A stretch of DNA of 64,000 nucleotides from an uncultured Clostridia bacterium (GCA_934101145.1 CAKOPZ010000005.1:5290-69289); one strand, 5' to 3'. Numbered from the stretch's first letter, positions 1,184 to 40,600 are shown. Program-made: numbers and translations. Notes: generated by a model from the letters alone, not told the origin.

Positions 1184-1971
1184 TGCAGATTATTTCAAGT
1201 AAAGATAATGAAATTGTAAAAAATATAAAAAAGCTTAAAGAAAAGAAATATAGAGATTTGGAAAATAAATTTATTGTAGAAGGAATTAAGCTTGTAGAAG
1301 AGGCAATACAGGAAAATGCTGATATAAAGCAAATTGTAGTATGTGATGATGATGTACAAGAAGGTAATTTGTCAAAAGAATATATGTACAAAATTGCAAA
1401 ATATGATTGTATATATGTTACAGCAAAGGTATTTCAGGTATTATCTGATGTAAAAACACCTCAAGGTATTTTGGCAGTAATTGAAAAGAAAAACACAAAT
1501 ACTACACTTGATTTTTCACAAGATATAATAATTGCATTAGATGATATACAAGATCCAGGAAACCTTGGAACAATACTTAGAACAGTTGATAGTGCAGGAC
1601 TAAATCAAATAATACTTTCAAAAAATAGTGCAGATGCATTTAATCCAAAAGTAGTTAGATCTACAATGGGTGCAATTTTTAGAGTAAATATAATAATTGC
1701 AGAAAATTTAGAAGAGATGCTAAAACAGGCACAAAAAAATAAATTTGAAATAATGGTAACTTCGCTGGATACACAAAATAGCATATATGATATAAAGTAT
1801 AAAAATAAAGTGATTGTTATTGGAAACGAGGCAAACGGAGTGTCTAAACCTATACAAGATATGGCAGATAAAAAAGTTAAAATTCCTATGCTTGGAAAAA
1901 CAGAAAGCTTAAATGCTTCTGTCGCAGCAAGCATTATGATATATGAATATGTTAGAGGAAAGATAGTATAA
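1183..1971 (+). CDS. TrmH/SpoU-family RNA 2'-O-methyltransferase
   Basis: GTG start overlaps the mfd stop, with RBS AAAGGAG upstream. SpoU motifs DPGNLGTILRT, VIVIGNEANGVS and IPMLGKTESLNASVAASI are present. Confidence 0.8.
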   Translation: MQIISSKDNEIVKNIKKLKEKKYRDLENKFIVEGIKLVEEAIQENADIKQIVVCDDDVQEGNLSKEYMYKIAKYDCIYVTAKVFQVLSDVKTPQGILAVIEKKNTNTTLDFSQDIIIALDDIQDPGNLGTILRTVDSAGLNQIILSKNSADAFNPKVVRSTMGAIFRVNIIIAENLEEMLKQAQKNKFEIMVTSLDTQNSIYDIKYKNKVIVIGNEANGVSKPIQDMADKKVKIPMLGKTESLNASVAASIMIYEYVRGKIV

Positions 1972-2060
1972 ATAGGAATTTTGTGATAAATCGAAAAAAA
2001 GGCTGGAATTTTGTGATAAACTTGTGAAAAATACACTTTTTCATATATGAAAACAATACA

Positions 2061-2101
2061 AAAATAACTCTGAATTAGCAATAAAGTCAGAGTTATTTTT
2101 T
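2061..2101 (+). terminator. Rho-independent terminator after the trmH-like gene
   Basis: Stem AAAATAACTCTGA / TCAGAGTTATTTT followed by a T-run. A near-identical copy lies at 6846-6887. Confidence 0.7.
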
Positions 2102-2357
2102 GATGTGGTACTTTTGGGAGGATGTTGAAAAAGTACCACAAAAATACCGTGAGTGAGTAATAATAAATGCAAGAGTAAAATAGAAATTTTTATTTAGAAA
2201 AAAATCGACAAAAGGGGTTGCTTTCTTTTGACAGGATTGGTAAAATAAGGATGTGAATTGAAGTACGCAAAAGATGAAAAGCTGTCCAAATTATCGAAAT
2301 TTTGCCTGTTGATTCAATAATTTTGTATACTAAAGAAAAAAGGAGGAAATGTTAAAA

Positions 2358-3476
2358 ATGAAAAACATAGTAAACAGAAGAAATAGTGGAATAACGCTAA
2401 TAGCGTTAGTTGTAACTATTGTAGTATTGATAATTCTTGCAACAGTAAGTATTTTTGCGGTATTTGGAGATAATGGAATAATATCAAGAGCACAAATTGC
2501 AAAGAGTACGCATGAAGAAGGAAAAGCGAATGAAGCAAATATGCTTGAAGATTATGCAAGCTATGTTGGAAATTATTTAGATGGAAAAAAAGACGACACT
2601 AAAAAAGATGAAGGAGCAACAGAAGGAATAACAGCAACAGTAGAAGGAAAGACAGTAACAATAACAAAAGATAATGTAGCAGACTATTTAGGAAGAGTAG
2701 TAACAAACTATGTACCAATAGCAACAACAGTAACAGTAGGGACAAAGACGTATACAGTATCAAATAACTACAGATTGTATTATGTAGATTTTGATAAAAA
2801 GTATAATAAAGATGAGGTATCAGTATTTTTGAAAGCAGATTGTACAAGCAATAATTATCAATTGCCAATAACAGATACAACATCAGCAGATGCAAGTAAT
2901 ATAAAAATCAAAGCATTAAATCCATCACTATATAAGGATGGAGTAACATCACCAACAGCAAGTCAAGAAAATATGAAGGAAGTAACATGGCTATTAAATA
3001 CAAGTAATTGGAATAGTTTAAAGACAGGAGCAAGCCTAGCAGATAAAGTAAATTATGTAGTAGGGGCACCAAGTGTAGAAATGATGATGGATAGCTATAA
3101 TACAAAGTATGGGCTAAAGGATAAAACAATAAATACAGATAAATTAACAGCAGATACAGAAAGAGCAAAATTGGTATATCAATATACAAGTGGAGATTTA
3201 GGATATAAAGTAGGACCATGTCATGATAATGGAACAGAATATGATTATTATACATCAGATTATTCAGTAAAAACAGATTCGAAAGTAGACAGTATGTTTT
3301 ATCCAGGAGATAACCAATGGTACTGGCTGGCGTCTCCTTCGGCTTACGACTCTAGCTATGTGTTCTATGTGAGCTACTATGGCGAAGGCAGTATGGGCGG
3401 CAACAGCTATGACTGCGACGGCGCGTTCTGTCCGCTAGTTTCTCTTAAGTCTACAGTCTCTCTACAACTACAGTAG
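2358..3476 (+). CDS. DGR target paralog 1: pilin-like N-terminus, conserved middle domain, C-terminal variable region
   Basis: AGGAGG lies 11 nt upstream of ATG 2358 (the ORF track starts at 2349). N-terminus is RRNSG-ITLIALVVTIVVLIILATVSI. The C-terminus WYWLASPSA...AFCPLVSLKSTVSLQLQ contains VR1. Confidence 0.85.
   Translation: MKNIVNRRNSGITLIALVVTIVVLIILATVSIFAVFGDNGIISRAQIAKSTHEEGKANEANMLEDYASYVGNYLDGKKDDTKKDEGATEGITATVEGKTVTITKDNVADYLGRVVTNYVPIATTVTVGTKTYTVSNNYRLYYVDFDKKYNKDEVSVFLKADCTSNNYQLPITDTTSADASNIKIKALNPSLYKDGVTSPTASQENMKEVTWLLNTSNWNSLKTGASLADKVNYVVGAPSVEMMMDSYNTKYGLKDKTINTDKLTADTERAKLVYQYTSGDLGYKVGPCHDNGTEYDYYTSDYSVKTDSKVDSMFYPGDNQWYWLASPSAYDSSYVFYVSYYGEGSMGGNSYDCDGAFCPLVSLKSTVSLQLQ
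3324..3438 (+). repeat. DGR variable repeat VR1
   Basis: 115-nt alignment to TR 9452-9566. Hand count gives 22 differences at TR adenines plus 6 at non-adenine positions. Confidence 0.8.
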
Positions 3477-3602
3477 AAAGTGCAAAAAAAAGTTAACATA
3501 AAACAATCTACGGGCTTTACAATACAAAAAGTTATTTCTTGTTTAAGAAATAACTTGACAAATAATTATTATCAAGGTTATAATAATTATGGGTGATGAA
3601 AA

Positions 3603-4796
3603 ATGCTAAAAAGAGAATTGTATTTATCAAGAATACGAGGATTTTATAATAGTGACCTTGTAAAAATTTTAGTAGGAATAAGAAGATGCGGAAAATCCGT
3701 AATTCTAAAACAAATAATGAACGAGCTAATTGAAAAAGGTATAGATGAAAATCATATAATACATATTAACTTTGAATTTATAGAGTATGAAGAGTTACAG
3801 GACTACAAAAAATTAAATAAATATATTAAAGAAAAAATTACAGATAGAAAAAAATATTATATATTTCTTGATGAAATTCAAAAAGTAGAAAAGTTTGAAG
3901 AAGTAGTAAATTCTTTAAGGGCATCTGTGGATAATATAAGTATATTTATTACAGGCTCAAATAGCAAATTGCTATCAAATGAGCTATCAACAGTTTTATC
4001 TGGAAGATATGTATTATTTAATATTTATCCATTAAGTTATAAGGAATTTGTAGAACTTACAAATAAGGAAGCAGAGTCAGAAGAAACATTTTGGGATTTT
4101 ATTAAGTGGGGTGGCTTACCTAACAGAACGCAGTTTACTGATGAAGAAAATATAAAAGATTATTTGCACAGTGTGTTTGATTCAATTATATTAAGAGATG
4201 TTGTGGAAAGATTGGGTCTAAAGGATATGGTTTTATTTAATTTGCTATTACAATATATTGTTGACACCACTGGACGTCAATTTTCAGCAGAAAATGTAAT
4301 TAACTATTTAAAATGTGAGGGAAAATCTGTATCAACTCAAACCTTATATGTATACTTAGATGCATTGTGCAGAGCATTGATAATAAAGAAAATATATAGA
4401 TATGATATTCATGGAAAAGCCATATTAAAAACTTTGAATAAATACTATATGACAGACCTTGGTATAGCTCAGATAAAAAATAATAATTTTGAGATAAATA
4501 AAAGTTTTGCAATAGAGAATGCTATATATAATGAATTGCTTGAAAGAGGGTATGATGTCTATATAGGGAAAACAAAAAATGGAGAAATAGATTTTATTGC
4601 AACAAAAACAGATGAGAAATTATATTTTCAAGTTGCATATTTATTGGAAAATGAGAAAGTTATAGATAGAGAATTTGGAGCTTTCAAAGAAATTAATGAT
4701 GATTATCCTAAATATGTGTTATCATTAGATAAAACGGATTTTTCAAAAGATGGAATTATTCATAAAAATATAATTGAGTGGTTGCTTGATAAATAA
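3603..4796 (+). CDS. AAA+ ATPase (AAA_14 / DUF4143-type architecture)
   Basis: Walker A GIRRCGKS and Walker B YYIFLDEIQ. Length and C-terminal region are typical of COG1373-like ATPases. Confidence 0.7.
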   Translation: MLKRELYLSRIRGFYNSDLVKILVGIRRCGKSVILKQIMNELIEKGIDENHIIHINFEFIEYEELQDYKKLNKYIKEKITDRKKYYIFLDEIQKVEKFEEVVNSLRASVDNISIFITGSNSKLLSNELSTVLSGRYVLFNIYPLSYKEFVELTNKEAESEETFWDFIKWGGLPNRTQFTDEENIKDYLHSVFDSIILRDVVERLGLKDMVLFNLLLQYIVDTTGRQFSAENVINYLKCEGKSVSTQTLYVYLDALCRALIIKKIYRYDIHGKAILKTLNKYYMTDLGIAQIKNNNFEINKSFAIENAIYNELLERGYDVYIGKTKNGEIDFIATKTDEKLYFQVAYLLENEKVIDREFGAFKEINDDYPKYVLSLDKTDFSKDGIIHKNIIEWLLDK

Positions 4797-4853
4797 ATTT
4801 ATGATTTATAAAAAATTGCTTTGAGTTTAGAAATAAATTCAAGGCAATTTTTT

Positions 4854-4962
4854 GTTGTATAGGAAAAATCGAAGATTTTCCCTATACAACAAGGTTAAGT
4901 TACATTGGGCTGTGCCGATTGCAAAACAATCGTGTACATGTGTCAAAGCCACTTTTCTTATT
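4854..4962 (+). repeat. Second dispersed element, copy 1 (begins with a 37-nt palindrome)
   Basis: GTTGTATAGGAAAAATCGAAGATTTTCCCTATACAAC plus about 70 nt is repeated in inverted orientation at 37957-38082. Identity is about 85% over the first ~75 nt by eye. Confidence 0.6.
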
Positions 4963-5129
4963 TAAAAGGAAAAATTGGACAGGTATCATATAGCATTAAT
5001 CTTAGAAATGGTAAAATCAAGTAAAAAAAGTATTGATTTTTAAAAATATAAATGGTAGTATAGGTATATGAAAAATGAACAAAGGAGTGCACAAAAGAAA
5101 TGATAAAGTATGAAACCGTTGAGGCTGTA

Positions 5130-5155
5130 AGAGAGAGAGAGAGAGAGAGAGAGAG
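5130..5155. repeat. (AG)13 dinucleotide microsatellite
   Basis: Uninterrupted agagag... run read directly from the sequence. Confidence 0.95.
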
Positions 5156-5372
5156 CCACAGTTTAGTAAAATAGATATAGAAGAAAATAGAGGCGAGAAA
5201 GCCTTTATTTGTGATAGAGAAAAAGACAGAAATAAAGCTAATGGTAGCTGGATTTCTATATTAGAAATTCCAAGTTGTCAAGAGCAAAGAGCTTGTAAAA
5301 GCTTATTTGTTCAAATAGCTTAATTTCTGTCTTTTTGTGCGCTTCAAAAATTGAAAAGGAGGAATTTAAAAA

Positions 5373-6506
5373 ATGAAAGAGGGAAAAATGAGGCAAGAAA
5401 GAGGTATCACGCTGATAGCGTTAGTTGTAACTATTGTAGTATTAATAATACTTGCAACAGTAAGTATTAATGCAGTGCTAGGACAAAATGGAATAATAGG
5501 GAAAGCAAAACAAGCAAAGGAGTCATATGAAAAAAGTGTGAAAGCAGAAGATACAGCAATGCAGGAATTACTAAATGAAATGGCACAGTATAATACTTAT
5601 AATAGTGGTTCAGGTGGAGGAACAACAAAACCTGAAGAAGGAATAACAGCAACAGTAGAAGGAAAGACAGTAACAATAACAAAAGATAATGTAGCAGATT
5701 ATTTAGGAAGAGTAGTAACAAACTATAAGCCAACATCAACAACAGTAACAGTAGGAAAAAAAGAATATACAGTATCAAATAATTACAGATTATATTATAT
5801 AGATTTTGAAAAAAAATATAATAAAGATGAAGTATCAGTATTTTTGAAGGCAGATTGTACAGGTAATATATATGCATTAGGACAAGATACAACAGCATCA
5901 ACAGCAGACAATGTAAAAATCAAGGCATTAAATCCATCATTATATAAGGATGGAGTAACAGCGCCAGCAGCAAGTCAAGCCAATATGAAAGCAGTAACAT
6001 TTTTAACAAATACAAGTAATTGGTCAAGCTTAAAAACAGGAGCAAGCCTAGCAGATAAAGTAAATTATGTAGTAGGTGCACCAAGTGTAGAGATGATGAT
6101 GGATAGTTATAATACAAAGTATGGATTAACAGGAAAAACACCAAATACAGGAACATTAACAGCAGATACAGCAAGAGCAAAATTATTCTATCAATATCCA
6201 ACAACGATAGATAGTAATAACTATGGATATGCGGTAGGCCCATGTAATAAAAGGTCAGATAAAAATGAATATAATTATTATACATCAGATTACTCAGTAA
6301 AAACAGATTCAGCAATAGACAGTATGTATTATCCAGGTAGTGGAAACTATTACTGGTTGGCGTCTCCTTCGGCTTCCTACGATTTCTGTGTGCTCAATGT
6401 GGACTGTCGCTTCGGGGGCCAAGTGTGCAACTGCAGCTGTAACAACAGTATTGCGCTTTGTCCGCTAGTTTCTCTTAAGTCTACAGTCTCTCTACAACTA
6501 CAGTAG
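5373..6506 (+). CDS. DGR target paralog 2 (pilin-like N-terminus, C-terminal VR)
   Basis: AGGAGG lies 10 nt upstream of the ATG. N-terminus is RQERG-ITLIALVVTIVVLIILATVSI. It shares the middle domain and the C-terminal YYWLASPSA...LCPLVSLKSTVSLQLQ with the other paralogs. Confidence 0.85.
   Translation: MKEGKMRQERGITLIALVVTIVVLIILATVSINAVLGQNGIIGKAKQAKESYEKSVKAEDTAMQELLNEMAQYNTYNSGSGGGTTKPEEGITATVEGKTVTITKDNVADYLGRVVTNYKPTSTTVTVGKKEYTVSNNYRLYYIDFEKKYNKDEVSVFLKADCTGNIYALGQDTTASTADNVKIKALNPSLYKDGVTAPAASQANMKAVTFLTNTSNWSSLKTGASLADKVNYVVGAPSVEMMMDSYNTKYGLTGKTPNTGTLTADTARAKLFYQYPTTIDSNNYGYAVGPCNKRSDKNEYNYYTSDYSVKTDSAIDSMYYPGSGNYYWLASPSASYDFCVLNVDCRFGGQVCNCSCNNSIALCPLVSLKSTVSLQLQ
6354..6468 (+). 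repeat. DGR variable repeat VR2
   Basis: 115-nt alignment to the TR. Hand count gives 23 differences at TR adenines plus 7 at non-adenine positions, including TTC->CTT inside the GC-rich 3' block. Confidence 0.8.
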
Positions 6507-6544
6507 AAAGTACAAAAAAGTTAACATAAAACAATCTACAACAA

Positions 6545-6787
6545 GCACAAAAAAATAAATTTGAAATAATGGTAACTTCGCTGGATACACCAAATAGCAT
6601 ATATGATATAAAGTATAAAAATAAAGTGATTGTTATTGGAAACGAGGCAAATGGAGTGTCTAAACCTATACAAGATATGGCAGATAAAAAAGTTAAAATT
6701 CCTATGCTTGGAAAAACAGAAAGCTTAAATGCTTCTGTCGCAGCAGGCATTATGATATATGAATATGTTAGAGGAAAGATAGTGTGA
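6545..6787 (+). pseudogene. Duplicated 3' fragment of the trmH-like gene (copy of 1729-1971)
   Basis: Near-identical to the last ~81 codons of the gene at 1183-1971. It has no N-terminal part, and the homology continues through the terminator into the upstream region of target 3. Confidence 0.85.
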
Positions 6788-7165
6788 ATAGGAATTTTGT
6801 GATAAACTTGTGAAAAATACACTTTTTCATATATGAAAACAATACAAAAATAACTCTGAATTGGCAATGAATTCAGAGTTATTTTTTGATGTGGTACTTT
6901 TGGGAGAACGTTGAAAAAGTACCACAAAAATACCGTGAGTGAGTAAAAATAAATGCAAGAGTAAAACATAAATTTTTATTTACAAAAAATCGACAAAGGG
7001 GTTGCTTTTTTTTGACAGTATTGGTAAAATAAGGATGTAAAATAACAATAAAGTATGCAAAAGATGAAAAATCTGCCAAAAATTATCGAAATTTTGCCTG
7101 TGGATTCGATAATTTTGGACATTTAATTTTTGTGTACTAAAGAAAAAAGGAGGAAAACGTTTAAA

Positions 7166-8299
7166 ATGAAAAACATAGTAAACAGAAGAAATAGTGGAAT
7201 AACGCTAATTGCGTTAGTTGTAACCATTGTAGTATTGATAATTCTTGCAACAGTGAGTATTAATACAGTATTAGGAGATAATGGAATAATAAAAAAAGCA
7301 CAAGAAGCTAAAGAGGCATACTCAAAAAGTGTGAAAGCAGAAGATACAGCAATGCAGAAATTACTAAATGAAATGGTACAGTATGATACTGATAATAGTG
7401 GTTCAGGTGGAGAAACAACAAAACCAGCAGAAGGAATAACAGCAACAGTAGATGGAAAGACAGTAACAATAACAAAAGACAATGTAGCAACATATTTAGG
7501 AAAAGTAGTAAGTAATTACAAGCCAACCGGAACAACAGTAGCTGTAGGAGGAACAACATATACAGTATCAAATAATTATAGATTGTATTATGTAGATTTT
7601 GAGGGAAAATATGGAGAAAAAAATGGAGTGTATTTGAAAGCAGATTGTACAAATAAAAATTATGCATTAGGACAAGATACAACAGCATCAACAGAAGACA
7701 ATATCAAAATCAAAGCATTAAATCCATCATTATATAATAAGGATGGGGTAACATCACCAGTAGCAAGTAATCCAAATATGAAAGCAGTAACATGGCTATT
7801 AAATACAAGTAATTGGAATAGTTTAAAAACAGGGGCAGGTTTAGCAGATAAAGTAAATTATGTAGTAGGTGCACCAAGTGTAGAGATGATGTTTGATAGT
7901 TATAATACAAAGTATGGGCTAACAGGAGAAACACCAGATACAAGCGCATTAAGTGCAAGTACAGATAGAGTAAAGCTATTCTATCAATATCCAACAACGA
8001 TAGATAGTAACAATTATGGATATGCGGTAGGCCCATGTAAGGATAGTTCAAATGAAAAAAAATATTATTATTACACATCAGATTATTCAGTAAAGACAGA
8101 TGCAACAATAGACAGTATGTATTATCCAGGGGATAATCAGTATTACTGGCTGGCGTCTCCTTCGGCTCACGGCACTAGCTTTGTGCTCTATGTGGACTCC
8201 AACGGCGGGGGCTATGTGTACAACTACAACTATGGCGGCAACGGTGCGTTCTGTCCGCTAGTTTCTCTTAAGTCTACAGTCTCTCTACAACTACAGTAG
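7166..8299 (+). CDS. DGR target paralog 3 (RT-proximal; pilin-like N-terminus, C-terminal VR)
   Basis: AGGAGG is upstream of ATG 7166 (the ORF track starts at 7130). N-terminus is RRNSG-ITLIALVVTIVVLIILATVSI. VR3 lies in the last ~50 codons. Confidence 0.9.
   Translation: MKNIVNRRNSGITLIALVVTIVVLIILATVSINTVLGDNGIIKKAQEAKEAYSKSVKAEDTAMQKLLNEMVQYDTDNSGSGGETTKPAEGITATVDGKTVTITKDNVATYLGKVVSNYKPTGTTVAVGGTTYTVSNNYRLYYVDFEGKYGEKNGVYLKADCTNKNYALGQDTTASTEDNIKIKALNPSLYNKDGVTSPVASNPNMKAVTWLLNTSNWNSLKTGAGLADKVNYVVGAPSVEMMFDSYNTKYGLTGETPDTSALSASTDRVKLFYQYPTTIDSNNYGYAVGPCKDSSNEKKYYYYTSDYSVKTDATIDSMYYPGDNQYYWLASPSAHGTSFVLYVDSNGGGYVYNYNYGGNGAFCPLVSLKSTVSLQLQ
8147..8261 (+). repeat. DGR variable repeat VR3 (cognate, adenine-only mismatches)
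   Basis: 115 nt aligned to TR 9452-9566. There are 20 mismatches, every one at a TR adenine, and 0 non-A mismatches (hand alignment). Confidence 0.9.
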
Positions 8300-29683: not shown

Positions 29684-29819
29684 GCATAACGATATAATAT
29701 TTCAAGGAAACGCGCAGCGACCAAACGAAGCCAAAGGCTGAGTGCGATTCGAGCAGCCGTCAATCCTTTGGGATTGGCTGCGAACGGCAAGTTTCTAAGA
29801 AATATTATATCGCTTATGC
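29684..29819 (-). repeat. Dispersed ~135-nt structured repeat, copy A
   Basis: 20-bp terminal inverted repeat GCATAA(G)CGATATAATATTTC encloses the conserved core GCAGCCAATCC..GGATTGACGGCTGC..TCGAATCGCACTCAGCC..GGTCGCTGCGCG. It lies in the rpmB 5' region. Confidence 0.85.
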
Positions 29820-31420: not shown

Positions 31421-31444
31421 AGGTGAATTTGCTAAAATAGTTTT

Positions 31445-31577
31445 GCATAAGCGATATAATATTTCTTAGAAACTTGCTGCTTACAGCCAATCCAAAAGAT
31501 TGACGGCTGCTCGAATCGCACTCACTAACGTTCGTTTGGTCGCTGCGCGTTTCCTTAAAATATGATATCGCTTATGC
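31445..31577 (+). repeat. Dispersed ~135-nt structured repeat, copy B
   Basis: Same architecture as copy A. It has the variant internal segment CACTCACTAACGTTCG, shared with copy F. It starts 24 nt after the adhesin stop. Confidence 0.85.
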
Positions 31578-31677
31578 TATGCATACAAACAAAAATTTGT
31601 ATATATGCTTGCGCTACAACTATTTTTGTGATAGAATTACAGGAAGCAAAAAATCACGAAAGTAGGAGAGGTAAAAT

Positions 31678-36279: not shown

Positions 36280-36364
36280 ATCTTATTAGATAAGCGAAAA
36301 AAAGCAGGAGAGATCCTGCTTTTTTTTATGTGTTACTAGATAATGATTTTAAGATTTATATTGA

Positions 36365-36500
36365 CGCATAGAGATATAATATTTCTTAGAAACTTGCTGT
36401 TCGCAGCCAATCCAAAAGATTGACGGCTGCTCGAATCGCACTCAGCCTTCGGCTTCGTTTGGTCGCTACGCGTTTCTTTGAAATATTATATCTCTATGCG
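36365..36500 (+). repeat. Dispersed ~135-nt structured repeat, copy C
   Basis: Perfect 21-bp terminal stem CGCATAGAGATATAATATTTC / GAAATATTATATCTCTATGCG. It shares the 5' extension GATTTTAAGATTTATATT with copies E and F. Confidence 0.85.
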
Positions 36501-36751
36501 CCTACAAAAAACATTATCCAGTAACTATTAGGCTAGAAACTTAGTAAAAAAAGTATTATAGAAAAATGTGATATATAAGGCAAAATATTAACATTAAAGC
36601 CGTGTAGAAATAATAAGATAAGCCAATAAAAAGAGATATGATTAGTTAAATGTTACAGCTATATTACAGAAATATTACAAATTTGTAAAAACATTGAACA
36701 TATACAAAAAATAATATATAATAAATAAAAAAATGGAAAAGGAGATAAAAT

Positions 36752-37903
36752 ATGGAACATAAGGAAAAGAAAAGACAAGAGAACAAAGGAATAACGCTAA
36801 TAGCGTTAGTTGTAACTATTGTAGTTTTAATAATACTTGCAACAGTAAGTATTTTTGCTGTATTTGGAGATAATGGGCTAATAGCAAGGGCACAAACAGC
36901 AAGAGATGTACAGAACAAAGAAAAGGCAAAAGAGACAAATACACTTGATGATTATGCAAGTTATATAGGAAATTATTTAGATAGTAAAAGTGAAGATAAC
37001 TCTAAGGAAGACGATAACAAGAAAGAAGGAATAACAGCAACAGTAGATGGAAAGACAGTAACAATAACAAAAGATAATGTGGCGACATATTTAGGAAGAG
37101 TAGTAAGCAATTACAAGCCTACAACAAATACCGTAACAGTAGGGACAAATACGTATACAGTATCAAATAATTATAGATTGTATTATGTGGATTTTGATAA
37201 AAAATATAATAAAGATGAAGTATCAGTATTTTTAAAGGCAGATTGTACAAGCAATAATTATACATTAGGACAAGATACAACAGCATCAACAGTAGACAAT
37301 GTAAAAATCAAAGCATTAAATCCATCACTATATAAGGATGGAATTACATCACCAACAGCAAGTAATGCAAATATGCAAGCAGTAACATTTTTAACAAATA
37401 CAAGTAATTGGAATAGTTTAAAGATAGGAGCAAGCCTAGCAGATAAAGTAAATTATGTAGTAGGTGCACCAAGTGTAGAGATGATGTTTGATAGTTATAA
37501 TACAAAGTATGGGCTAAAGGATAAAGCAATAAATAAAGGAACATTAACAGCAGATACAAAAAGAGAAAAATTATTCTATCAATATCCAACAACAATAAAT
37601 ACTTATGGAAGTAATTTAGGATATGAGGTAGGACCAAATAATTCAAGCTCAGCAGTAAATGGATATAATTATTATACATCACAATATTCAGTAAAAACAG
37701 ATGCAACAATAGACAGTATGTATTATCCAGGAGATAGCCAATATTACTGGTTGGTGTCTCCTTCGGCTCGCAGCACTGACTATGTGCTCCGTGTGGGCTG
37801 CGGCGGAGGGGGCTATGTGAGCTTCGGCAGCTACTATAGCGACGGCAGTGCGTTCTGTCCGCTAGTTTCTCTTAAGTCTACAGTCTCTCTACAACTACAG
37901 TAG
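36752..37903 (+). CDS. DGR target paralog 4 (remote, ~26 kb from the RT)
   Basis: AAGGAG RBS. N-terminus is ENKG-ITLIALVVTIVVLIILATVSI. The middle domain and last 17 residues match paralogs 1-3. Confidence 0.85.
   Translation: MEHKEKKRQENKGITLIALVVTIVVLIILATVSIFAVFGDNGLIARAQTARDVQNKEKAKETNTLDDYASYIGNYLDSKSEDNSKEDDNKKEGITATVDGKTVTITKDNVATYLGRVVSNYKPTTNTVTVGTNTYTVSNNYRLYYVDFDKKYNKDEVSVFLKADCTSNNYTLGQDTTASTVDNVKIKALNPSLYKDGITSPTASNANMQAVTFLTNTSNWNSLKIGASLADKVNYVVGAPSVEMMFDSYNTKYGLKDKAINKGTLTADTKREKLFYQYPTTINTYGSNLGYEVGPNNSSSAVNGYNYYTSQYSVKTDATIDSMYYPGDSQYYWLVSPSARSTDYVLRVGCGGGGYVSFGSYYSDGSAFCPLVSLKSTVSLQLQ
37748..37865 (+). repeat. DGR variable repeat VR4 (one codon longer than the TR)
   Basis: Hand alignment gives about 26 differences at TR adenines, 3 non-A substitutions and one extra codon (TAC). 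Confidence 0.75.
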
Positions 37904-37956
37904 AAAGCTTAGAGAACATACAAAATATAAACAGGCAAATGAAGTAATTTAAATAG

Positions 37957-40284: not shown

Positions 40285-40300
40285 TTTTACATATAAAAAA

Positions 40301-40434
40301 CATAAGAGATATAATATTTCTTGGAAACTTGCCGTTCGCAGCCAATCCAAAAGATTGACGGCTGCTCGAATCGCACTCAGCCTTCGGCTTCGTTTGGTCG
40401 CTGCGCGTTTCCTTGAAATATTATATCTCTTATG
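40301..40434 (+). repeat. Dispersed ~135-nt structured repeat, copy D
   Basis: Perfect 20-bp terminal stem CATAAGAGATATAATATTTC / GAAATATTATATCTCTTATG. It starts 16 nt after the recG stop. Confidence 0.85.
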
Positions 40435-40600
40435 CTTTATTTATAGTATAAAAAATAATAATGTAACATTTTTTTACAGGTAAAAATACTACAAAAAAGT
40501 GGCGTTTACTATTGACATTTACATAAAAAAACAATATGATATTAGATAGAAAAATGTAGAAATATGTAAAAGCAAAATTTGAAAGGCAAGGAGAGTAAAT

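What the first reader, a model, noticed from the sequence alone, without database searches (positions are those of the whole stretch)
3324..6468. Unequal VR states: only the RT-proximal VR is adenine-pure; VR1, VR2 and VR4 carry non-adenine changes
The table gives my hand counts of differences against the TR.

| VR | Differences at TR adenines | Non-adenine differences |
|---|---|---|
| VR3 | 20 | 0 |
| VR1 (3324-3438) | 22 | 6 (CTC->TTC, GGG->GAA, GTG->ATG, two third-position C/T changes and others) |
| VR2 (6354-6468) | 23 | 7 (including TTC->CTT in the GC-rich 3' block and C->T in the 5' flank) |
| VR4 (37748-37865) | about 26 | 3, plus one extra codon |

Each retrohoming event should reset non-A positions to the TR sequence. 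Three explanations are possible:

- Paralogs 1, 2 and 4 have not been rewritten since those substitutions arose and are fossil or decaying VRs.
- They are serviced by another TR elsewhere in the genome.
- The TR itself changed after they were last written.

Several non-A differences are AAC versus xxT third positions, which would fit an ancestral or alternative TR with AAT at those codons.
Basis: seen in the sequence. Interest (0 to 1): 0.7.

Follow-up and report, generated by a model that had tools for sequence, protein, structure and literature searches.

The report
One active, three frozen DGR targets
A gut Clostridia bacterium carries a targeted-mutation system (a diversity-generating retroelement) that today rewrites only the target gene next to it, while three sister genes keep old, unchanging versions that still bear the marks of earlier forms of the template.

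Summary
Against the 115-nt TR (9452-9566, 38 adenines), differences at adenine / non-adenine positions are:
- VR3: 20 / 0
- VR1: 22 / 6
- VR2: 23 / 7
- VR4: 25-26 / 3, plus one extra codon

Population data from about 20 independent gut-metagenome contigs of the same species (99.1-99.98% identical) settle the interpretation.
- The RT-proximal VR3 has 11 distinct DNA alleles. They differ from the TR at 220 adenine sites and at 1 of 847 non-adenine sites.
- VR1, VR2 and VR4 are each a single invariant sequence. Each is seen on 18-22 contigs and on 3-9 protein backbones that differ elsewhere.

So VR1, VR2 and VR4 are frozen, and nothing is servicing them now. The genes are intact, so they are not decaying pseudogenes.

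Part of their non-adenine signal is template history. The TR is polymorphic in the species, with point and codon-indel alleles. One allele at the same locus carries exactly VR2's TTC->CTT. Ten of the 16 non-adenine states occur in other TR alleles or in sister-species TRs.

Why the distal copies stopped being rewritten is not resolved. This is an ordinary Avd + MutS-like DGR. Unequal targets were already noted by Wu et al. 2018. The new element here is the explanation: frozen copies written by earlier TR alleles.

The parts
2358..3476 (+). Target paralog T1 (372 aa as called in assemblies; an upstream ATG lies at 2349). Pilin-like N-terminus; VR1 at the C-terminus.
   Evidence: ORF. Weak N_methyl hit. 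The exact protein is on 18 contigs, and 8 alleles have an identical VR.
3324..3438 (+). VR1, frozen. 22 adenine and 6 non-adenine differences from the TR.
   Evidence: Identical in the window, L120, L122 and L123. Invariant across 8-9 protein alleles.
5373..6506 (+). Target paralog T2 (377 aa).
   Evidence: ORF. The exact protein is on 17 contigs, and 8 alleles have an identical VR.
6354..6468 (+). VR2, frozen. 23 adenine and 7 non-adenine differences. Carries TTC>CTT, the state of a TR allele found in other strains.
   Evidence: The CTT TR allele is in L219-L222. Six of the 7 non-adenine states occur in other TRs.
7166..8299 (+). Target paralog T3 (377 aa as called; a TTG start at 7130 is possible). 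This is the RT-adjacent, actively diversified target.
   Evidence: ORF. The exact protein is on only 2 contigs. Nine proteins share this backbone and carry nine different VRs.
8147..8261 (+). VR3, active. 20 adenine and 0 non-adenine differences.
   Evidence: Eleven distinct alleles occur in 19 loci; differences fall at TR adenines except for one base.
8262..8313 (+). 3' flank of VR3: an IMH-like element and downstream sequence. The first 41 nt (8262-8302) recur identically at 3439-3479, 6469-6509 and 37866-37906; beyond that, only VR4's flank continues to match, up to 37917 and further. The TR has a diverged version, CTAG-ATTCT-TTAAGACTACTG.
   Evidence: The possible TTCTCT/AGAGAA stem is present only at VR3 and VR4 and is not significant by folding.
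8438..8887 (+). MutS-like (MSL) accessory gene.
   Evidence: Pfam MutS_I, E = 6.7e-10. This accessory class is described in PMC5758913.
8868..9377 (+). Avd accessory gene.
   Evidence: Pfam bAvd, E = 5.7e-7. NCBIfam DivGenRetAVD, E = 1.4e-10. Both are below the curated cut-offs.
9452..9566 (+). Template repeat (TR), 38 codons, AAC-rich. Identical in the window, in all 18 loci fetched through two RT alleles (L120-L127, L130-L139) and in L230.
   Evidence: Alternative alleles exist in other strains.
9587..9615 (+). 10-bp stem-loop just 3' of the TR. It is a candidate structured part of the DGR RNA; its role in priming is inferred.
9883..10845 (+). DGR reverse transcriptase (320 aa).
   Evidence: RVT_1, E = 1.8e-16. 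Motifs IGSMTSQ and YQDD are present.
36752..37903 (+). Remote target paralog T4 (383 aa), about 26 kb downstream of the RT gene.
   Evidence: ORF. The exact protein is on 22 contigs. Twenty contigs have the same neighbours.
37748..37865 (+). VR4, frozen. 25-26 adenine and 3 non-adenine differences, plus one extra codon in the AAC run.
   Evidence: The same VR occurs in P0007, P0008 and P0093. It is identical in L227.

Best explanation
This is a chromosomal diversity-generating retroelement of the Avd + MutS-like class in an uncultured gut Clostridia species. It has one TR, one RT and four paralogous targets with pilin-like N-termini.

In the present population only the RT-adjacent target is being rewritten by adenine-mutagenic retrohoming from the resident TR. 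VR1, VR2 and VR4 were written by TR-derived cDNA in the past. They have not been rewritten since before the sampled strains diverged.

Their non-adenine differences from the resident TR come from two sources. The first is that the TR itself evolves, so these VRs keep the imprint of the older or foreign TR allele that last wrote them. The second is ordinary point mutation after they stopped being rewritten.

**Shown:**
- the DGR anatomy
- the adenine bias of all four VRs
- VR3 turnover at adenine positions only
- invariance of VR1, VR2 and VR4
- the existence of TR alleles, including the CTT allele, and its transfer to the adjacent VR in the strain that carries it

**Inferred:**
- which TR allele wrote each frozen VR
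- the reason they are no longer targeted, which remains unknown. Candidates are loss of a cis element beyond the shared 41-nt flank (VR1, VR2), mismatches in the homology blocks (VR2, VR4), distance (VR4), or selection against change.
For: **Anatomy**
- The RT has IGSMTSQ and YQDD motifs; Avd, a MutS_I-like gene, the TR and four VRs are present.

**Past writing**
- Adenine sites changed far more often than non-adenine sites in each VR: 22/38 vs 6/77 (VR1), 23/38 vs 7/77 (VR2), 25/38 vs 3/77 (VR4); p <= 1e-8.

**Present activity of VR3**
- Eleven distinct alleles occur in 19 loci that are 99.1-99.98% identical outside the VRs.
- Every pairwise difference checked among the window and L120-L125 alleles lies at a TR adenine. 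Pooled over all 11 alleles, non-adenine changes are 1 of 847.
- Nine proteins share the T3 backbone and carry nine different VRs.

**Frozen state of VR1, VR2 and VR4**
- VR1 DNA is identical in 4 of 4 loci and VR2 in 5 of 5 loci, while VR3 changed in the same loci.
- The exact T1, T2 and T4 proteins are on 18, 17 and 22 contigs. The exact T3 protein is on 2.
- Eight T1 and eight T2 alleles, plus P0007, P0008 and P0093 for T4, differ outside the VR but never inside it.

**TR history**
- TR-ORF alleles at the same MSL-Avd-TR-RT locus include ALCPL, SLCPL, a K/D/D allele, and alleles with -1, +4 and -5 codons.
- The DNA of L219-L222 shows a TR identical to the window's except for TTC>CTT. In L219 the adjacent VR also has CTT and otherwise only adenine-site changes.
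- Ten of the 16 non-adenine states of VR1, VR2 and VR4 occur in other TR alleles or in sister-species TRs, against 16% expected for random substitutions (p = 4e-5). For VR2 it is 6 of 7.
- VRs of 37-43 codons exist in the family, alongside the TR length alleles.
Against: - No single sampled TR allele carries all of any frozen VR's non-adenine states. Six of the 16 are unmatched: VR1 9508, 9513 and 9521; VR2 9520; VR4 9459 and 9511.
- The match test is biased. Sites free to vary in TRs are also the sites most free to mutate in VRs.
- Consensus contigs cannot show low-frequency variants within a sample, so rare retrohoming at VR1, VR2 or VR4 is not excluded.
- VR1 has perfect 5' and 3' homology blocks and the same 41-nt downstream flank as VR3. 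No cis defect explains why it is frozen.
- In strain L121 the paralog at the T1 position is almost adenine-pure against the resident TR. Distal copies can therefore be written on longer timescales.
- The rest of the genome could not be searched for a second TR.
Confidence: 0.8

Rival explanations
1. Noncanonical mutagenesis: the resident DGR itself introduces the non-adenine substitutions and the codon indel when it rewrites VR1, VR2 and VR4. Wu et al. 2018 proposed this reading for DGRs whose targets show unequal patterns.
For: PMC5758913 reports non-A-to-N differences in 23% of DGRs and unequal patterns between targets of one DGR. One VR3 allele (L137) has a single non-adenine change.
Against: - The measured non-adenine rate at the active VR3 is 1 of 847 sites. 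That gives about 0.09 expected per write, against the 3-7 observed.
- VR1, VR2 and VR4 do not vary in the population, so they are not being rewritten now.
- VR2's CTT is exactly a TR allele.
Confidence: 0.04
2. A second TR, or a second DGR, elsewhere in the same genome services VR1, VR2 and VR4.
For: TR alleles with other non-adenine states exist in the species. The genome outside the window was not searchable.
Against: - The three VRs are invariant across 18-22 contigs and several backbones.
- There is no second TR, RT or Avd in the 64-kb window, nor in the locus stretches fetched around the RT in 18 further contigs.
- The variant TR alleles found all sit at the same locus in other strains, not at a second locus.
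Confidence: 0.04
3. All four VRs are still targeted, but strong purifying selection or recent sweeps keep one VR1, one VR2 and one VR4 allele at consensus level.
For: - The three genes are intact and conserved.
- All four paralogs keep an identical 41-nt 3' flank, although the gene bodies are only about 80-88% identical to each other. This could mean the targeting element is still under selection.
- L121 has a nearly adenine-pure distal VR.
Against: - The surviving alleles carry non-adenine states that a full rewrite from the resident TR would erase, so the sampled lineages have not been overwritten.
- The backbones around the frozen VRs have diverged and recombined (3-12 aa differences), so a single recent sweep is unlikely.
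Confidence: 0.1
4. Assembly artefact: the multi-copy VR regions were mis-assembled or made chimeric in the metagenome-assembled genome, creating spurious non-adenine differences.
For: Many contigs break at or near VR3. One database protein (P0183) is a target-TR chimera.
Against: The same VR1, VR2 and VR4 sequences are recovered independently in many samples and by several assemblers, each in its own flanking context.
Confidence: 0.02

Closest known systems
Avd + MSL (MutS-like) class diversity-generating retroelements with several targets; the class includes the Legionella DGR (Wu et al. 2018, PMC5758913)
   Same: - Gene order is target - MSL - Avd - TR - RT.
- The RT has the IGxxxSQ motif.
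- The TR is AAC-rich and its adenines fall at codon positions 1 and 2.
- The VRs sit at the C-terminal end of the targets.
- The element has adjacent targets and one non-adjacent target.
- TR-VR differences include non-A-to-N changes and a 3-nt indel opposite an AAC run, in some targets but not others. That survey describes this same pattern.
   Different: Here the unequal pattern can be explained with population data: inactive targets plus TR allele turnover, rather than noncanonical mutagenesis. The targets have a pilin-like N-terminus and no confident Pfam domain.
Thiohalocapsa PB-PSB1 DGRs (Dore et al. 2024, PMC10907252)
   Same: - Many paralogous targets that arose by duplication.
[quoted passage not shown]
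- At least one target has stopped diversifying.
   Different: [quoted passage not shown] Here the frozen VRs do not match the resident TR.
- There the loci were disrupted by transposons. Here the single DGR is intact and active on one target.
Bordetella phage BPP-1 DGR (mtd, TR, brt; target recognition in PMC3240598, which I saw only as a title and abstract and did not read; mechanistic details are from my own knowledge)
   Same: - Adenine-specific TR-to-VR transfer.
- A GC-rich block at the 3' end of the VR, followed by a short element that differs between VR and TR (IMH versus IMH*).
- An Avd accessory protein.
   Different: - That element has a single target and is phage-borne.
- It has a GC-rich hairpin downstream of the VR. 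Here no significant hairpin was found.
- The host here is a chromosome of a gut Clostridia bacterium, and the element has an extra MutS-like gene.

Membership tests
Diversity-generating retroelement (DGR) | Reverse transcriptase of the DGR type (RVT_1 domain with the [I/L]GxxxSQ motif and YxDD) | tested here: met
   RVT_1, E = 1.8e-16. IGSMTSQ at residue 185 and YQDD at residue 217.
Diversity-generating retroelement (DGR) | A TR/VR repeat pair whose differences fall overwhelmingly at TR adenines | tested here: met
   VR3 has 20 of 20 differences at adenines. Pooled over 11 VR3 alleles there are 220 adenine and 1 non-adenine differences.
Diversity-generating retroelement (DGR) | Accessory protein Avd next to the TR | tested here: met
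   bAvd, E = 5.7e-7. DivGenRetAVD, E = 1.4e-10. Both are below the curated cut-offs, but the E-values are significant and the gene is in the canonical position.
Diversity-generating retroelement (DGR) | A 3' asymmetry between VR and TR (IMH versus IMH*) after a shared GC-rich block | tested here: met
   The shared block is GCGTTCTGTCCGCTAG. After it the VRs read TTTCTCTTAAGTCTACAG and the TR reads ATTCT-TTAAGACTACTG. Its function was not tested.
Diversity-generating retroelement (DGR) | Inverted repeat or hairpin downstream of the VR, as in BPP-1 | tested here: inconclusive
   A TTCTCT.../...AGAGAA stem is possible at VR3, at VR4 and at the RT-proximal VRs of this species whose 3' flank was read. 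It is absent at VR1 and VR2. Folding is not better than shuffled sequence (z = -0.56).
Diversity-generating retroelement (DGR) | The variable region lies in a C-type-lectin-like or DUF6273/Lcl_C-type C-terminal domain | tested here: inconclusive
   There is no Pfam hit above threshold. DUF6273 scores E = 0.0019 for the T1 C-terminus, and relatives' TR ORFs hit DUF6273 and Lcl_C. The AlphaFold model failed (pLDDT 34).
MSL-containing DGR subclass (Wu et al. 2018) | A small MutS-like accessory gene together with Avd | tested here: met
   MutS_I, E = 6.7e-10, 149 aa, overlapping the start of avd. The class is described in PMC5758913.
Currently active DGR target (applied to VR1, VR2, VR4) | The VR matches the resident TR at all non-adenine positions | tested here: not met
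   There are 6, 7 and 3 non-adenine differences, and VR4 has an extra codon.
Currently active DGR target (applied to VR1, VR2, VR4) | The VR varies at TR-adenine positions between closely related strains | tested here: not met
   Each has a single VR sequence across 18-22 contigs and 3-9 backbone alleles. Within-sample minority variants were not testable.
Currently active DGR target (applied to VR3) | The VR matches the TR at non-adenine sites and varies at adenine sites between strains | tested here: met

The most novel reading that the evidence does not exclude
Diversify, duplicate, freeze. The RT-adjacent copy is the only writable target. Segmental duplication moves written copies away from the element, where they stop being rewritten and are kept as a stable archive of earlier variants.

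Because the TR itself turns over quickly (point changes, codon indels, A>G changes at its own adenines), each archived VR also records which TR allele wrote it. If this is general, many of the 'noncanonical' TR-VR differences listed in DGR surveys would be history rather than mechanism. Frozen VRs could then be used to reconstruct TR evolution.
Probability: 0.25. Interest if true: 0.6.

Novelty: new member of a known kind. Interest (0 to 1): 0.4.

Why it matters
DGR surveys routinely find targets with non-adenine differences and indels against their TR. They leave open whether these reflect extra mutagenic capacity or inactivity.

At this locus public metagenome assemblies answer the question. 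The impure VRs are static in nature, the pure one turns over in nearly every strain, and part of the impurity is the footprint of other TR alleles. Three practical points follow:
- Non-adenine mismatches did mark inactive targets at this locus.
- TR polymorphism within a species has to be considered before noncanonical mutagenesis is invoked.
- Searching protein databases with the spurious ORF that gene callers place over a TR is a cheap way to catalogue TR alleles.

The finding does not change what is known about how DGRs work.

Tried and rejected
2. A longer pattern that matches both VRs and the TR found only VRs, in two MAGs. These were CAJMLO01 (ERR1430524-bin.35) and a rabbit Clostridia MAG. 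No TR was found, so the window's own genome is not among the GTDB representatives.
4. A structure prediction of T3 from a 46-sequence alignment failed (mean pLDDT 34). I therefore ran no fold search.
5. A PDB sequence search with T3 found nothing meaningful.
6. Folding the 3' flanks to find a cruciform that would separate active from frozen VRs was inconclusive. A TTCTCT/AGAGAA stem is present at VR3 and VR4 and absent at VR1 and VR2. It is not better than shuffled sequence, VR4 is frozen despite having it, and a nearly pure distal VR in L121 lacks it.
7. I considered a single TR change shared by all three frozen VRs and rejected it. Only position 9455 is shared, by VR2 and VR4.
8. RT infidelity as the source of the non-adenine changes was rejected on the measured rate of 1 in 847.
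9. The first exact-protein look-ups of T1 and T3 failed only because the ORF finder's start codons differ from the called genes. They worked with starts at 2358 and 7166.

Full report
**1. The observation**

The window holds a five-member repeat family. The members are four VRs and one AAC-rich TR:
- VR1 at 3324-3438
- VR2 at 6354-6468
- VR3 at 8147-8261
- VR4 at 37748-37865
- TR at 9452-9566

The TR has 38 adenines in 115 nt.

| VR | Differences at TR adenines | Differences at other positions |
|---|---|---|
| VR3 | 20 | 0 |
| VR1 | 22 | 6 |
| VR2 | 23 | 7 |
| VR4 | 25-26 | 3, plus a 3-nt insertion in the AAC run |

- All four VRs are strongly adenine-biased (p <= 1e-8). All four are therefore genuine products of adenine mutagenesis.

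**2. Anatomy**

The genes on the + strand, in order, are:
- a SpoU methylase gene
- T1 (2358-3476)
- an AAA_14/DUF4143 ATPase gene
- T2 (5373-6506)
- a duplicated fragment of the SpoU 3' end
- T3 (7166-8299)
- a MutS_I-like gene (8438-8887)
- avd (8868-9377)
- the TR
- the RT gene (9883-10845; motifs IGSMTSQ and YQDD)
- aspS

T4 (36752-37903) lies about 26 kb further on.

- The window has only one RT, one Avd, one MSL gene and one TR.
- The targets have a pilin-like hydrophobic N-terminus. The N_methyl and GspG hits are sub-threshold.
- The targets have no confident C-terminal domain. DUF6273 scores E = 0.0019, and the AlphaFold model failed.
- After the shared GC-rich block GCGTTCTGTCCGCTAG, all four VRs continue with an identical 41 nt. 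The TR has a diverged version, which gives an IMH/IMH*-like asymmetry.
- The gene bodies of the paralogs are only about 80-88% identical to each other over most 60-nt windows.
- Contig names place the organism among uncultured gut Clostridia. Samples include human gut and Hadza metagenomes. Sister DGRs with 66-80% RT identity occur in rabbit and human gut MAGs.

**3. Population test**

I fetched contigs that encode the exact RT protein (P0009) and a second RT allele (P0011). This gave 18 further copies of the locus from independent assemblies, 99.1-99.98% identical to the window.

*TR and VR3*
- The TR is identical in all of them.
- The RT-proximal VR has 11 distinct sequences.
- Every pairwise difference checked among the window and L120-L125 alleles lies at a TR adenine. 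Pooled over all 11 alleles, they differ from the TR at 220 of 418 adenine sites and at 1 of 847 other sites.

*VR1, VR2 and VR4*
- In the same contigs VR1 is identical in 4 of 4 loci that contain it, and VR2 in 5 of 5.
- At protein level the exact T1, T2 and T4 sequences are on 18, 17 and 22 contigs. The exact T3 is on only 2.
- I grouped family members by backbone, requiring at least 96% identity outside the VR.

| Backbone | Proteins | Distinct VRs |
|---|---|---|
| T3 | 9 | 9 |
| T1 | 8 | 1 |
| T2 | 8 | 1 |
| T4 | 2 | 1 (also found in P0093) |

- Twenty contigs share T4's neighbourhood, and the VR4 DNA checked is identical.

VR3 is therefore actively diversified in nature, and VR1, VR2 and VR4 are not. 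Non-adenine changes at the frozen VRs (16 of 231 sites) far exceed those at VR3 (1 of 847; p = 1.8e-10).

**4. Where the non-adenine differences come from**

Gene callers often place an ORF over the TR. I searched the protein collection with that ORF (window 9449-9691) and recovered TR alleles from other strains:
- the major AFCPL allele (P0173 and P0174, on 50 and 41 contigs)
- ALCPL and SLCPL alleles
- an allele with N>K and two N>D changes
- alleles with -1, +4 and -5 codons

*The CTT allele*
- The DNA of four contigs (L219-L222) shows a TR that differs from the window's only by TTC>CTT, the two changes seen in VR2.
- These TRs sit in the same MSL-Avd-TR-RT context.
- In L219 the adjacent VR also carries CTT and otherwise differs only at adenines.
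- So CTT is copied from TR to VR, and a CTT-type TR last wrote VR2, not the resident one.

*Comparison with all available TRs*
- I compared every non-adenine state with two within-species TR alleles and six sister-species TRs.
- Ten of the 16 states occur in some other TR: 6 of 7 for VR2, 3 of 6 for VR1 and 1 of 3 for VR4.
- A random substitution would match 16% of the time (p = 4e-5).
- This p-value is optimistic, because sites that vary among TRs are also the least constrained sites in VRs.

*Other points*
- The TTG shared by VR2 and VR4 at 9455 is the state in five of the six sister-species TRs.
- TR length alleles, and VRs of 37-43 codons in the family, make it plausible that a longer TR allele or slippage in the AAC run wrote VR4's extra codon. 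No 39-codon TR was seen.
- Six states remain unmatched: VR1 9508, 9513 and 9521; VR2 9520; VR4 9459 and 9511. They are best read as ordinary mutations after the freeze, or as unsampled TR alleles.

**5. Mechanism and what is not explained**

The best-supported account has four steps.
1. The paralogs arose by segmental duplication. Evidence: 1720-2334 repeats at 6536-7126 at 87-97% identity, and strains with RT allele P0011 have only the T3-type target at this locus.
2. After the paralogs had diverged they were still being written from a TR. Their VR non-adenine sites are 91-96% identical to the TR, while the gene bodies are about 80-88% identical to each other.
3. They then stopped being rewritten.
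4. Since then the TR moved on to its present allele.

Why they stopped is not shown.
- VR2 has mismatches in both homology blocks, and VR4 has two in the 5' block.
- VR1 and VR2 lose similarity to VR3 from 42 nt downstream and lack a possible TTCTCT/AGAGAA stem.
- Against a cis explanation: that stem is not significant by folding, VR4 has it, VR1 has perfect homology blocks, and a distal VR in strain L121 that lacks it is almost pure.
- Selection for the archived variants and rare residual retrohoming cannot be excluded from consensus contigs.

**6. Comparison with what is known**

- This is a member of the Avd + MSL class of DGRs.
- Wu et al. 2018 (PMC5758913) already reported three things. 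Twenty-three per cent of DGRs have non-A-to-N differences. Indels in multiples of 3 occur opposite AAC runs. Targets of one DGR often differ in this respect, for example one target with seven non-A-to-N differences and an indel beside another that is pure. They suggested noncanonical mutagenesis as the cause.
- Dore et al. 2024 use a match at non-adenine sites as the criterion for diversification in trans. They describe a target whose diversification stopped.
- Roux et al. 2021 classify DGRs as active or inactive from metagenomic SNVs.

The phenomenon is therefore known. What is added here is a clean natural contrast within one element, and direct evidence that TR allele turnover, not noncanonical mutagenesis, accounts for at least part of the impurity.

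**7. Verdict**

- Observation: confirmed.
- Interpretation: alternatives 1 and 3 are supported, and alternative 2 is not.
- Novelty: a new member of a known kind.
- Interest: moderate (0.4).

Noticed in passing
window 31444-31581, 36364-36501, 40299-40436, 48083-48220; also 29684-29812 and 60019-60144: A palindromic intergenic repeat of about 138 nt with terminal inverted repeats (GCATAGAGATATAATATTTC...GAAATATTATATCTCTATGC). It looks like a MITE or REP element. One copy lies about 250 nt upstream of T4. It has no Rfam match.
   Followed up: partly
window 1720-2334 versus 6536-7126: A segmental duplication (87-97% identity) of the SpoU methylase 3' end and the intergenic region. It leaves a 72-aa SpoU fragment ORF at 6569-6787. 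Strains with RT allele P0011 have only the T3-type target at this locus and no T1-AAA-T2-SpoU' block, so the number of targets differs between strains.
   Followed up: partly
TR alleles in L223-L226 (TR positions 45, 55, 60, 79) and proteins P0156-P0158 and P0176-P0187: The TR itself is polymorphic in the species. Alleles include A>G changes at its own adenines, T>A and C>T changes, and codon indels of -5, -1 and +4. This suggests slow self-mutagenesis, or recombination between VR and TR.
   Followed up: partly
L125-L127 and L134-L139, contig ends: Many metagenome contigs end within a few hundred bases upstream of the MutS-like gene, at or in VR3. This is as expected where a hypervariable, multi-copy region breaks assemblies.
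   Followed up: no
protein P0183 (401 aa, on a 1436-nt contig): A target gene is fused directly to the TR and its downstream sequence (...QYYWLASPSANNTNN...AFCPLDSLRLLW...). This is either an assembly collapse between VR3 and the TR, or a real VR-TR recombination that deleted MSL and avd.
   Followed up: no
window 3439-3479, 6469-6509, 8262-8302, 37866-37906: The 41 nt after each VR are identical in all four paralogs, although the gene bodies are about 80-88% identical to each other. Other strains carry variant versions (TTCAATCTTCAG, TAAAATCT). This points either to within-genome homogenisation or to selection on the targeting element, even at the frozen copies.
   Followed up: partly
window 9587-9615: A 10-bp stem-loop (ATAATAGCAA / TTGCTATTAT) lies immediately 3' of the TR. 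It is the most stable local structure in that stretch (z = -1.7).
   Followed up: no
window 62287-62537 (+): A T-box leader (Rfam RF00230, 96 bits).
   Followed up: no
family proteins P0077, P0086, P0102, P0108, P0112, P0115, P0118, P0136: One VR (ALGTTNVLYVVRLNGGYVASYVYNPDY, with one non-adenine-type change) is carried by representatives of eight different 90%-identity clusters. Frozen VRs that spread across diverged or recombined backbones may therefore be common in this family.
   Followed up: no
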